Shown here piece by piece: positions 54,601-57,600 of a stretch of 64,000 bases of DNA (its first letter is position 1; each line of letters starts with the position of its first letter). The stretch lies in the NCBI RefSeq assembly GCF_002854065.1, contig NZ_CP024147.1; one strand, written 5' to 3'. A program made the position numbers. This DNA comes from Escherichia coli. Lineage in GTDB: Bacteria > Pseudomonadota > Gammaproteobacteria > Enterobacterales > Enterobacteriaceae.

Positions 54601-57600
54601 GCCAGAAGAAGTTAACGCGCTGAAATTTAAAGTGCCGGGTGGGGTAGCAACGACCATCGGCGGGCTGATTTTCCTGCTCTTTATTATCGGGTTGATTGGT
54701 TATCACCCGGATACGCGTATCTCGCTGTATGTCGGTTTCGCGTGGATTGTTGTGCTGTTGATTGGCTGGATGTTTAAACGCCGCCACGATCGTCAGCTGG
54801 CTGAAAACCAGTAATACTTGCGTTCTGTAAGCCGGTTCAGGAGGAAATCCTGATCCGGCTATTCCGAAAGTTATCCGCCCCCGTCCTCCTCCCCCAAATA
54901 TCCTTCAGATGATGAGTGATCCTGCATTAGGCTATGGCAAGGTGATCAGATTTTCATCACAGGGGAATTATGATGTTAAATGCATGGCACCTGCCGGTGC
55001 CCCCATTTGTTAAACAAAGCAAAGATCAACTGCTCATTACACTGTGGCTGACGGGCGAAGACCCACCGCAGCGCATTATGCTGCGTACAGAACACGATAA
55101 CGAAGAAATGCCAGTACCGATGCATAAGCAGCGCAGTCAGCCGCAGCCAGGCGTCACCGCATGGCGGGCGGCGATCGATCTCTCCAGCGGACAACCCCGG
55201 CGGCGTTATAGTTTCAAATTGCTTTGGCACGATCGCCAGCGTTGGTTTACACCGCAGGGCTTCAGCCGAATGCCGCCGACACGACTGGAGCAGTTTGCCG
55301 TTGATGTACCGGATATCGGCCCACAATGGGCTGCGGATCAGATTTTTTATCAGATCTTCCCTGATCGTTTCGCCCGTAGTCTTCCTCGTGAAGCTGAACA
55401 GGATCATGTCTATTACCATCACGCAGCCGGACAAGAGATCATATTGCGTGACTGGGATGAACCGGTCACGGCACAGGCGGGCGGATCAACGTTCTATGGC
55501 GGCGATCTGGACGGGATAAGCGAAAAACTGCCGTATCTGAAAAAACTTGGCGTGACGGCGCTGTATCTCAATCCGGTGTTTAAAGCTCCCAGCGTACATA
55601 AATACGATACCGAGGATTATCGCCATGTCGATCCGCAGTTTGGCGGTGATGGGGCGTTGCTGCGTTTGCGACACAATACGCAGCAGCTGGGAATGCGGCT
55701 GGTGCTGGACGGCGTGTTTAACCACAGTGGCGATTCCCATGCCTGGTTTGACAGGCACAATCGTGGCACGGGGGGAGCTTGTCACAACCCCGAATCGCCC
55801 TGGCGCGACTGGTACTCGTTTAGTGATGATGGCACGGCGCTCGACTGGCTTGGCTATGCCAGCTTGCCGAAGCTGGATTATCAGTCGGAAAGTCTGGTGA
55901 ATGAAATTTATCGCGGGGAAGACAGTATTGTCCGCCACTGGCTGAAAGCGCCGTGGAATATGGACGGCTGGCGGCTGGATGTGGTGCATATGCTGGGGGA
56001 GGCGGGTGGGGCGCGCAATAATTTGCAGCACGTTGCCGGGATCACCGAAGCGGCGAAAGAAACCCAGCCAGAAGCGTATATAGTTGGAGAGCATTTTGGC
56101 GATGCACGGCAATGGTTACAGGCCGATGTGGAAGATGCCGCCATGAACTATCGCGGCTTCACATTCCCGTTGTGGGGATTTCTTGCCAATACCGACATCT
56201 CTTACGATCCGCAGCAAATTGACGCTCAAACCTGTATGGCCTGGATGGATAATTACCGCGCAGGGCTTTCTCATCAACAGCAATTACGTATGTTTAATCA
56301 GCTCGACAGCCACGATACTGCGCGATTTAAAACGCTGCTCGGTCGGGATGTTGCGCGCCTGCCCCTGGCGGTGGTCTGGCTGTTCACCTGGCCTGGTGTA
56401 CCGTGCATTTATTACGGTGATGAAGTGGGACTGGATGGTAAAAACGATCCGTTTTGCCGTAAACCGTTTCCCTGGCAGGTGGAAAAGCAGGATACGGCGT
56501 TATTCGCGCTGTACCAGCGAATGATTGTGCTGCGTAAGAAAAGTCAGGCGCTGCGTCGTGGCGGCTGTCAGGTGCTGTATGCGGAAGATAACGTGGTGGT
56601 ATTTGTCCGCGTGCTGAATCAGCAGCGTGTACTGGTGGCAATTAACCGTGGCGAAGCCTGTGAAGTGGTGCTACCCGTGTCACCGTTTCTTAATGTCGTG
56701 CAATGGCAACGCAAAGAAGGCCATGGGCAACTGACAGACGGGATTCTGGCTTTGCCTGCCATTTCGGCTACGGTGTGGATGAACTAAAGCATCTGTTTTA
56801 TTTGTTACGTCGTTAGTCACCAGCCCTGACACTACGCAGCGCAAAAAAGCTGCTCAATGTCAGGGCTGAATTTGTTAAATATTTGTCCCGATCGATATGA
56901 GCGATTTTTGGTATTCTTTGCCCATGATGTTATGTACAACATGCTCCAGGATAACCCTGTAGTGGAGCAAAGATATGACAATTTCAAATTCGAATTTATT
57001 AAAACCGTTTATTACTGGTTCTAAGTTGCTACCTTTTAAGGATGATGTCTTTTCTAAAACAGAAGAACAATTTAAAAAAAGCCCCCATGGCAAATCGCTT
57101 TTCATTTCCGGAAATGAAAACTTAGTAAACATTTCAGCGGAAAAAATCGATGAAATAAAAAATAGCAAAAATTTCTTTTCAAACATTGTAAATATAATAA
57201 TTTTACTCATTAAGCATCCTGATAAAATTCTGCCTATTCTTCATGGTTGTCCTGCAGAGTCCATCGAATTCATTAAGAATGCGAAACGAACGGGGCAATG
57301 GTCATATGAGATGACTGATAAGTACGGGCAGAGTATTGAAGTGTCCTATATTTTCACTGATACCATAGATAATAAATCTGATGGAAAATTATGCTTAAAA
57401 ATCTGTAACTCCTGCAACCAAAATGATTCTAGTACACATGAATATAAAATAGAACATCAACAGTTGAAAAATCACATAAAGCAACTTGAGGAGTGGGCTC
57501 TTCTTGAAAAGTTTTATGATAACAACGCTTATTATTCTAAACGTACAAAACAATTAGAGAAGAAAATTACCGATGCGGGGTTTATAACAGGGAAGGTTAA

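What the first reader, a model, noticed from the sequence alone, without database searches (positions are those of the whole stretch)
56821..56876. Long nested hairpin at the malZ 3' end, at the border of the AT-rich insertion
cagccctgacact...atgtcagggctg forms an 11-bp outer stem enclosing an inner gcagcgc-aaaaaa-gctgct stem, directly after the malZ stop and just before the compositionally foreign 489-aa gene. It may be the malZ terminator, and it marks the approximate left junction of the putative insertion.
Basis: seen in the sequence. Interest (0 to 1): 0.2.

Follow-up and report, generated by a model that had tools for sequence, protein, structure and literature searches.

The report
Stem-loop inside a strain-variable E. 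coli cassette
The hairpin is real, but it belongs to a 1.7-kb segment that only about a fifth of E. coli strains carry between malZ and acpH, so it is not malZ's native terminator; at most it is an ordinary, non-canonical end-of-transcript stem-loop.

Summary
A perfect 11-bp outer stem (56821-56831 / 56858-56868) encloses a 5-bp inner stem (56836-56840 / 56849-56853). The RNA hairpin alone folds at -29.9 kcal/mol, and such repeats are rarer than chance predicts.

The window is E. coli. In 4295 of 5426 complete genomes, including K-12 types, the malZ and acpH stop codons lie 4 nt apart and there is no hairpin. In 1126 genomes (O157:H7, O55:H7, O145:H28 and others) a ~1,674-nt AT-rich segment fills the gap. 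It holds the hairpin and the 489-aa ORF, always together and in one copy.

The left junction sits exactly at the malZ stop (56787|56788). The hairpin therefore lies 33 nt inside the variable segment and is not a native malZ element. Salmonella, Enterobacter and Klebsiella carry a peroxiredoxin gene next to acpH at this position. Salmonella has a classical terminator after malZ that is unrelated to this hairpin.

The ORF has no relatives outside Escherichia/Shigella. The hairpin matches no Rfam family, has no repeat copies and shows no mobile-element signature. Its U-tail is weak (score 1.2, against 3.5-4.1 for true terminators).

Best guess (0.45): a cassette-borne stem-loop that forms or protects the 3' end of malZ mRNA. 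Interest is low.

The parts
54970..56787 (+). malZ (maltodextrin glucosidase) CDS, with stop TAA at 56785-56787. This is the conserved left flank.
   Evidence: ORF list. NCBIfam equivalog PRK10785, 1128.8 bits. RefSeq annotation of the identical locus.
56788..58461 (.). Strain-variable segment of about 1,674 nt. It is present in 1126 of 5426 complete E. coli genomes and is replaced by a single C in the 'empty' allele. The left border is exact. The right border is ambiguous over 58461-58470, because the last two acpH codons differ between the alleles (CTC TGA against TTA TAA).
   Evidence: GC content falls to 28-43% here against about 53% in the flanks. No homology to the Salmonella, Enterobacter or Klebsiella intervals.
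56788..56820 (+). T-rich 33-nt leader (45% T) between the malZ stop and the hairpin.
56821..56868 (+). The nested hairpin. Outer stem 56821-56831 / 56858-56868 (11 bp). Internal loops 56832-56835 and 56854-56857. Inner stem 56836-56840 / 56849-56853 (5 bp). Loop 56841-56848.
   Evidence: Alleles.
56869..56876 (+). Tail AATTTGTT. It has 5 T in 8 nt but starts with AA. This is a weak U-tract.
   Evidence: T-tail score 1.20.
56869..56974 (+). 106-nt spacer upstream of the ORF. It holds a GGAG Shine-Dalgarno sequence at 56964-56967, 7 nt before the ATG. The consensus scan found no promoter on the + strand.
56975..58444 (+). 489-aa ORF restricted to Escherichia/Shigella, AT-rich and without a family assignment. 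An internal 12-nt tandem repeat at 57806-57913 accounts for alleles of 473-493 aa.
58465..59046 (-). acpH (ACP phosphodiesterase) CDS, convergent with malZ and the ORF. This is the conserved right flank.
   Evidence: NCBIfam PRK10045, 426.8 bits..

Best explanation
The hairpin is part of the upstream non-coding leader of a 1.67-kb cassette. The cassette consists of the leader, the hairpin, a spacer with a ribosome-binding site, and an orphan ORF. It occupies the malZ-acpH gap in about 21% of E. coli genomes.

In those strains, RNA polymerase leaving malZ transcribes the hairpin 33 nt after the stop codon. I propose that the stable, GC-based stem-loop sets the 3' boundary of malZ mRNA. It could do this in two ways:
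- as a weak, non-canonical intrinsic terminator (tail AAUUUGUU);
- more probably, as the stem-loop at which 3'->5' exonucleases stop after termination further downstream in the untranslated AT-rich spacer. This is what has been described for Rho-dependent E. coli transcripts.

A by-product would be partial insulation of the foreign ORF from maltose-induced read-through. It would also break up the malZ/acpH convergent transcript overlap seen in K-12.

Shown here: the anatomy, the strain distribution, the junctions, the stability of the fold, and the absence of any repeat-family or mobile-element signature. Inferred: every statement about RNA 3' ends and termination.
For: - Position and strand fit a 3'-end element. 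The hairpin is on the sense strand, 33 nt after the malZ stop and ahead of the next gene's Shine-Dalgarno sequence.
- It is very stable and forms autonomously: -29.9 kcal/mol alone, and the same module in the 113-nt and 241-nt contexts, with z = -3.1 and -4.1.
- The base of the stem is GC-rich, and 5 of the first 8 tail bases are T.
- It is present in every one of the 1126 carrier genomes and in all 40 sampled loci. Length variation is confined to the terminal loop.
- It is the only strong inverted repeat in the cassette. There is no structure between the ORF stop and acpH.
- Dar & Sorek 2018 (PMC6061677) report that steady-state 3' ends of Rho-dependent E. coli transcripts lie immediately after stable stem-loops that lack a U-tract.
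- In MG1655, which has the empty allele, malZ-acpH is listed as a convergent overlapping-transcript pair (PMC12288877). This is consistent with malZ lacking a terminator of its own in E. coli.
Against: - No transcript data were available for this locus.
- The T-tail score is 1.20, against 4.14 and 3.53 for bona fide terminators.
- The 48-nt branched geometry falls outside the scan's terminator criteria, and the scan did not report it.
- There is no C>G (rut-like) composition in the first ~160 nt downstream: C/G is 0.8-0.9 there.
- There is no covariation. Stems are nearly invariant, which is uninformative.
- With corrected coordinates, 1 of 32 paired columns varies against about 19 of 156 other intergenic columns. 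That is not a significant excess of conservation (hand recount, whose own run used inner-stem coordinates off by one and gave 2/32 against 18/156, p = 0.54).
- One haplotype, about 2% of carriers (the 21 genomes in the 90-95% identity band), breaks an outer pair with C->A at 56830.
- The minus strand folds better, because two C.A mismatches become G.U pairs. That is not expected if selection acts on the + strand RNA.
Confidence: 0.45

Rival explanations
1. Neutral passenger. The palindrome came in with the foreign segment, for instance as the terminator of whatever gene lay upstream of the ORF in an unknown donor, or as a junction by-product. It has no selected role in E. coli. It persists only because the whole segment is young and little diverged.
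For: - The whole 187-nt spacer is about 97% identical across alleles, so conservation of the stem is not exceptional. The Fisher test on paired against unpaired columns is not significant.
- There is no covariation.
- A pair-breaking haplotype is tolerated.
- The U-tail is weak.
- The neighbouring ORF is itself under only weak constraint, with dN/dS about 0.5-0.65.
- 79% of E. coli genomes do without the hairpin.
Against: - A -30 kcal/mol structure on a transcribed strand will form and will impede exonucleases whether or not it is selected for, so 'no effect' is unlikely even if 'no selection' is true.
- Indels are confined to the loop.
- No allele has lost the hairpin while keeping the ORF: 1126 genomes carry each.
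Confidence: 0.35
2. Regulatory RNA element for the ORF or for an antisense transcript. The hairpin would be part of a long 5' leader, or the structured end of a minus-strand RNA, and would control expression of the orphan gene.
For: - The minus strand folds into a longer, almost continuous helix: -35.2 against -29.9 kcal/mol. Two + strand C.A mismatches become G.U pairs.
- The only consensus promoter match in the region is on the minus strand, at 57470->57441, and points towards the hairpin.
- The hairpin and the ORF always occur together.
Against: - The hairpin ends 106 nt before the ATG and does not pair with the Shine-Dalgarno or start region in the predicted fold.
- There is no credible Rfam match. 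The best is E = 0.35, to a plant miRNA family at 23 bits against a 90-bit threshold.
- The minus-strand tail has no U-tract, scoring 0.65.
- Two G.U-type mismatches out of three is not significant (about p = 0.1, my estimate).
Confidence: 0.1
3. DNA-level site. The hairpin would be the end of a mobile element, a recombination or attachment site, or a member of an extragenic palindrome family (REP/BIME-like) that mediated the insertion.
For: It sits 33 nt from an indel junction, and it is a perfect 11-bp inverted repeat.
Against: - There is exactly one copy per genome in all 1126 carriers and none in the other 4300.
- There is no partner repeat at the other end of the segment, no terminal inverted repeats and no target-site duplication. 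The apparent GAACT repeat is not conserved among alleles.
- There is no tRNA.
- There is no integrase or transposase. The ORF has no Pfam, NCBIfam, PADLOC or PHROG match.
- Nothing related is found in phages, plasmids or viral contigs.
- The only matches to the stem pattern among the representative genomes of 100,044 species are three unrelated terminators in Prevotellaceae and Oscillospiraceae MAGs.
Confidence: 0.05

Closest known systems
Rho-independent (intrinsic) transcription terminator
   Same: - A GC-rich stem-loop on the sense strand shortly after a stop codon.
- A stable base of the stem.
- Some T in the tail (AATTTGTT).
   Different: - The hairpin is 48 nt long, with a 4x4 internal loop and an 8-nt terminal loop, rather than a compact stem of 5-14 bp.
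- The tail begins with AA and scores 1.20. The terminator at 53385-53412 in this window scores 4.14, and the Salmonella malZ/peroxiredoxin bidirectional terminator scores 3.53.
- The scan did not call it.
Protective 3' stem-loops of Rho-dependent E. coli transcripts (Dar & Sorek 2018, PMC6061677)
   Same: - An energetically stable stem-loop without a U-rich tail.
- It lies downstream of a coding region.
- It is followed by untranslated sequence.
   Different: - That paper places C-rich rut sites immediately downstream. Here the downstream sequence is AT-rich with C/G of about 0.9.
- No 3'-end mapping exists for this locus.
REP/BIME and other extragenic palindromes that stabilise upstream mRNA
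   Same: An imperfect palindrome in a 3' untranslated region between convergent genes.
   Different: - REP elements are multi-copy families with a shared consensus.
- This sequence is single-copy and has no relatives.
Strain-variable orphan-gene islets in E. coli (the small O157 'O-island' type of difference from K-12; named from my own knowledge)
   Same: - A short AT-rich segment holding one uncharacterised gene.
- It lies between conserved core genes.
- It is present in O157:H7 Sakai as ECs_0454 and absent from K-12.
   Different: Nothing unusual. The only added detail is that the islet occupies the slot where other Enterobacteriaceae carry a peroxiredoxin gene.

Membership tests
Intrinsic (Rho-independent) terminator | A stable GC-rich stem-loop on the transcribed sense strand downstream of a stop codon | tested here: met
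   -29.9 kcal/mol. 7 of the 11 outer pairs are G-C. It starts 33 nt after the malZ stop.
Intrinsic (Rho-independent) terminator | A compact hairpin (stem of about 5-14 bp, loop of 3-8 nt) reaching to the U-tract | tested here: not met
   The hairpin is 48 nt and branched, with a 4x4 internal loop. The terminator-like scan of 56400-59300 did not list it.
Intrinsic (Rho-independent) terminator | A U-rich tract immediately 3' of the stem | tested here: inconclusive
   AATTTGTT has 5 T in 8 nt but starts with AA. The decay-weighted T score is 1.20, against 4.14 and 3.53 for two clear terminators. The scoring formula was recalled from memory.
Intrinsic (Rho-independent) terminator | An RNA 3' end mapped at the tail, with termination in vitro | not testable with these tools
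   No transcript data were found. The supplements of two O157 Sakai papers were queried: one has none held as text, and the other has no entry for this locus.
Protective stem-loop at Rho-dependent 3' ends (PMC6061677) | A stable stem-loop not followed by a U-rich sequence | tested here: met
   The family definition comes from the abstract read.
Protective stem-loop at Rho-dependent 3' ends (PMC6061677) | A C-rich, G-poor rut region immediately downstream | tested here: not met
   C/G is 0.79-0.94 in 78-nt windows starting at 56869-56989.
Protective stem-loop at Rho-dependent 3' ends (PMC6061677) | Bicyclomycin-sensitive read-through and exonuclease-dependent trimming back to the stem | not testable with these tools
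   This needs an experiment.
REP/BIME or other repeated extragenic palindromes | Many dispersed copies per genome sharing a consensus | tested here: not met
   One place per genome in 1126 genomes and none elsewhere. One match in the window.
Mobile-element terminus or attachment site | A matching repeat at the other end, a target-site duplication, and an adjacent recombinase or tRNA | tested here: not met
   No terminal repeats. The candidate direct repeat is not conserved among alleles. No tRNA. The ORF has no recombinase domain.
Any curated RNA family (Rfam 15) | A covariance-model score at or above the family's gathering threshold | tested here: not met
   The best match is 23 bits against a 90-bit threshold, E = 0.35, to a plant miRNA model. 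This is a chance match.

The most novel reading that the evidence does not exclude
The hairpin would be a selected, cassette-borne insulator. It would be a non-canonical terminator or an RNase/exonuclease barrier that travelled with an Escherichia-specific orphan gene. By replacing the 4-nt malZ/acpH stop-to-stop junction, it would rewire the convergent-transcript interference between malZ and acpH in about a fifth of E. coli, including O157:H7.
Probability: 0.1. Interest if true: 0.3.

Novelty: new member of a known kind. Interest (0 to 1): 0.1.

Why it matters
It matters little. The useful outcome is a correction. The hairpin should not be annotated as the malZ terminator of E. coli in general, because it exists only in strains that carry the ECs_0454-type orphan gene.

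Exact junctions and frequencies are now available for this dimorphic site: 1126 filled genomes and 4295 empty ones.

If the stem-loop does define the malZ 3' end, carrier and non-carrier strains would differ in malZ/acpH convergent transcription. That is a small, testable example of accessory DNA reshaping core-gene transcript architecture.

Tried and rejected
- **Rfam scan, both strands, E up to 10.** Only chance matches.
- **Hairpin as a repeat family.** One copy per genome.
- **Hairpin elsewhere in biology.** A 22-base stem pattern with a variable gap was scanned. In 100,044 species-representative genomes it gave three unrelated MAG terminators with different inner sequence and true T-runs. 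Viral contigs gave none.
- **Relatives of the ORF, to trace a donor and see whether the hairpin travels with it.**
  - All word-index hits are E. coli or Shigella.
  - An exhaustive HMMER search of 1.84 billion representatives found one full-length cluster plus fragments.
  - Nothing in species-representative genomes, phages or true plasmids (the two hits are mislabelled chromosomes).
  - No Pfam, NCBIfam, PADLOC, PHROG or PDB match.
- **AlphaFold2 on a 12-allele alignment.** Mean pLDDT was 36.6, so no fold search was attempted.
- **Covariation.** 40 loci collapse to 8 flank-inclusive haplotypes, or 4 distinct hairpin sequences, with no compensatory change.
- **Target-site duplication.** The window's GAACT...GAACT similarity at the two junctions is GGAGCT or GGAGTT in other alleles. 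Rejected.
- **dif/XerCD-like site.** The tail ATTTGTTAAAT resembles the XerD arm of dif as I recall it (9 of 11), but the would-be XerC arm matches 1 of 11. Checked by eye and rejected.
- **Integron attC.** No GTTRRRY core pairing. Checked by eye and rejected.
- **Remnant of the ancestral peroxiredoxin region.** blastn and tblastn of the Salmonella, Enterobacter and Klebsiella intervals against 56700-58560 matched only the malZ and acpH coding ends.
- **Polarity of the indel.** Unresolved. The acpH end of the filled allele (TCAGAG) is closer to the outgroups (TCACAG, TTACAG) than the empty allele's TTATAA. The CGTT after the malZ stop in the empty allele resembles the Salmonella CGT-TGA. The ORF's dS (median 0.03) is lower than that of the adjacent malZ (0.083). 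A search with the Salmonella peroxiredoxin listed no hit named Escherichia among the best 120. I could not fetch E. albertii or E. fergusonii.
- **Literature.** No paper in the library mentions ECs0454. Two O157 Sakai papers yielded nothing for this locus: one has no supplements held as text, and the other's supplements have no entry for it.
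Full report
**1. The observation**

The window reads ...ATGAAC TAA (malZ stop, 56785-56787), followed by a 33-nt T-rich leader. Then comes CAGCCCTGACA CTAC GCAGC GCAAAAAA GCTGC TCAA TGTCAGGGCTG (56821-56868), followed by AATTTGTTAAATATTTG.

- an 11-bp perfect outer stem (56821-56831 / 56858-56868);
- a 4x4 internal loop;
- a 5-bp inner stem (56836-56840 / 56849-56853);
- an 8-nt terminal loop.

The hairpin alone is worth -29.9 kcal/mol on the + strand. On the - strand it is worth -35.2 kcal/mol, because two C.A mismatches become G.U pairs. In 113-nt and 241-nt contexts it forms as the same autonomous module, with z-scores of -3.1, -4.4 and -4.1.

The stem pattern occurs once in the window, with 0 expected. 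Only four loci in the 64 kb have a perfect inverted repeat of at least 11 bp with a short loop. Markov simulations gave a mean of 0.63 qualifying 11-mer pairs, against 14 observed pairs that collapse into those four loci.

**2. Where it sits**

The flanking genes are:
- malZ, 54970-56787, + strand;
- a 489-aa ORF, 56975-58444, + strand;
- acpH, 58465-59046, - strand;
- queA, from 59139.

These come from the ORF list, RefSeq annotation and NCBIfam. The organism is E. coli: a 2.1-kb query matched strain CUWW06 at 100%.

The site is dimorphic across 5426 complete E. coli genomes.
- 1126 genomes carry the whole segment. These include O157:H7 Sakai (where the ORF is ECs_0454), O55:H7 and O145:H28. 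Each has one chromosomal copy.
- 4295 genomes have a contiguous 'empty' junction.
- In K-12-type genomes the malZ stop and the acpH stop are 4 nt apart...GAAC TAA CGTT TTA TAA CGCC.... Two more divergent empty-allele genomes (L047, L048; identity to the window about 94.5-95%) have the same architecture with two SNPs.

Comparing the two allele types fixes the borders.
- The left border is exactly after the malZ stop (56787|56788).
- The right border falls at 58461-58470. It is ambiguous because the last two acpH codons read CTC TGA in every filled allele and TTA TAA in every empty allele examined.

The hairpin therefore lies 33 nt inside a variable segment of about 1,674 nt, and it is absent from every genome that lacks the ORF. 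The count of genomes with the hairpin (1126) equals the count with the ORF (1126). No genome has one without the other.

**3. What the segment is**

The segment has 28-43% G+C, against about 53% in the flanks.

The ORF is taxonomically restricted.
- All word-index hits are E. coli or Shigella dysenteriae.
- An exhaustive HMMER scan of 1.84 billion 50%-identity representatives found one full-length cluster plus fragments of the same gene.
- There is nothing in the representative genomes of 100,044 species, in phages or in true plasmids.
- There is no Pfam, NCBIfam, PADLOC, PHROG or PDB match.
- An AlphaFold2 model was unusable, with mean pLDDT 36.6.

The ORF looks like a weakly constrained gene. 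It is intact in 35 of 39 loci where it could be assessed; four metagenome contigs carry truncated versions. dN/dS is about 0.5-0.65. Maximum dS is 0.087, against 0.168 in the adjacent malZ 3' end of the same genomes. A 12-nt tandem repeat at 57806-57913 explains alleles of 473-493 aa.

There are no terminal inverted repeats, no conserved target duplication, no tRNA and no recombinase.

**4. Outgroups**

Three chromosomes or chromosome fragments that are mislabelled as plasmids in PLSDB gave the neighbourhood in other genera. Salmonella, Enterobacter and Klebsiella all have a 200-aa peroxiredoxin gene immediately after acpH on the same strand. In Salmonella it lies between acpH and malZ.

Nothing in 56788-58464 is homologous to that gene or to its flanks. 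After malZ, Salmonella has a textbook bidirectional terminator (AAAAAAGGCTCGC-GATG-GCGAGCCTTTT) that is unrelated to the E. coli hairpin.

Both E. coli states are therefore derived relative to these genera, and 'insertion into K-12-like DNA' is not established. The clues on polarity conflict, and I leave it open:
- The acpH end of the filled allele (TCAGAG) is closer to the outgroups (TCACAG in Salmonella and Enterobacter, TTACAG in Klebsiella) than TTATAA is.
- The CGTT of the empty allele resembles the Salmonella CGT-TGA.
- The ORF's synonymous diversity is lower than malZ's.

**5. What the hairpin is not**

- It is not a curated RNA family. The best Rfam hit is 23 bits against a 90-bit threshold.
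- It is not a repeat family. There is one copy per genome.
- It has no relatives elsewhere. The stem pattern found only three unrelated terminators in Prevotellaceae and Oscillospiraceae MAGs, and nothing in viral contigs.
- It is not a recognisable mobile-element end.
- It is not malZ's ancestral terminator (sections 2 and 4).

**6. What it most likely does**

Position and strand fit a 3'-end element for malZ mRNA in carrier strains. As an intrinsic terminator, however, it is atypical.
- It is 48 nt long and branched, and the scan did not call it.
- The tail AAUUUGUU scores 1.20 on a decay-weighted T score. The formula was recalled from memory.
- The clear terminator at 53385-53412 scores 4.14, and the Salmonella terminator scores 3.53.

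Dar & Sorek (PMC6061677) showed that steady-state 3' ends of Rho-dependent E. coli transcripts lie just after stable stem-loops lacking U-tracts, which block 3'->5' exonucleases. A very stable stem followed by about 106 nt of untranslated AT-rich RNA fits that picture. Against it, I see no C>G rut-like composition immediately downstream.

In MG1655, which has the empty allele, malZ-acpH is listed among convergent overlapping-transcript pairs (PMC12288877). The cassette with its hairpin would separate those two transcription units.

I therefore favour a cassette-borne 3'-end-forming or protective stem-loop (0.45). The alternatives are:
- a neutral passenger (0.35);
- a regulatory or antisense RNA element (0.10), which the better minus-strand fold keeps alive;
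- a DNA-level site (0.05).

Population data cannot discriminate among these. The 40 loci give 4 distinct hairpin sequences. Variation is in the loop A-run, apart from one haplotype with C->A at 56830 (which breaks a pair) plus C->T at 56835 and T->A at 56854 (which together add an inner pair). There are no compensatory changes. The stems are not significantly more conserved than the rest of the spacer (with corrected coordinates).

**7. Verdict**

This is a real but ordinary structure. The reading as 'the malZ terminator' holds at most for the 21% of strains that carry the cassette, and then only as a non-canonical element. Interest is low (0.1). It is best filed as a new, unannotated member of a known kind, the terminator-like or protective 3' stem-loop.

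Noticed in passing
window 56788-58464, compared with L044 (Salmonella), L045 (Enterobacter) and L046 (Klebsiella): The slot next to acpH holds a conserved 200-aa peroxiredoxin gene in three other genera. In Salmonella the gene lies between malZ and acpH. E. coli has either nothing (a 4-nt gap) or the orphan ORF. The best 120 hits to the Salmonella peroxiredoxin listed none named Escherichia. The locus looks like a replacement hotspot.
   Followed up: partly
window 57806-57913: A 12-nt tandem repeat (AAAACTGCGGAA-like units, encoding K-T-A-E/K) lies inside the 489-aa ORF. Alleles of 473, 477, 481, 485, 489 and 493 aa occur among strains and metagenome contigs.
   Followed up: partly
window 58465-58470 against L001 793-798: The last two acpH codons are CTC TGA in every filled allele and TTA TAA in every empty allele examined. 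That is three differences in 6 nt, in complete linkage with the indel. The protein end (Leu-stop) is unchanged.
   Followed up: partly
window 7782-7832: A 19-bp perfect inverted repeat with G6/C6 cores (TATACTATAGGGGGGTATG ... CATACCCCCCTATAGTATA) lies 26 nt upstream of the frmR start. frmR runs 7756->7481 on the - strand and matches the NCBIfam FrmR equivalog at 189 bits. The repeat is probably the FrmR operator at the frmRAB promoter. That identification is from my own knowledge of CsoR/RcnR-type operators and was not tested.
   Followed up: partly
window 53385-53412 and 23937-23966: Two other perfect inverted repeats of at least 11 bp. The first is a textbook terminator (AACCACGGGGC-TGCGAT-GCCCCGTGGTT followed by TTTTATT). 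The second (TAATGCCCGTCAA-GGAT-TTGACGGGCATTA) has no T-tail.
   Followed up: no
PLSDB records NZ_CP134663.1, NZ_CP141089.1, CP125156.1, CP082688.1, NZ_CP056156.1: Several 'plasmid' records are whole chromosomes or large chromosomal fragments of E. coli, Klebsiella, Salmonella and Enterobacter. They carry the core secD-yajC-tgt-queA-acpH region. They were useful here as outgroups.
   Followed up: yes
L017, L025, L036, L043 (metagenome contigs): Four of 30 metagenome copies have the ORF truncated, at 326, 60, 340 and 186 aa. At least one of them (L043, coverage 1.2) is a very low-coverage assembly, so I cannot tell assembly errors from pseudogenes.
   Followed up: no
window 56975-57060 (N-terminus of the ORF): The first ~20 residues (MTISNSNLLKPFITGSKLLPF) are rich in Ser, Asn, Thr and Ile and contain no acidic residue. 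This is reminiscent of type III secretion signals. The resemblance is an impression from memory only, with no supporting test.
   Followed up: no
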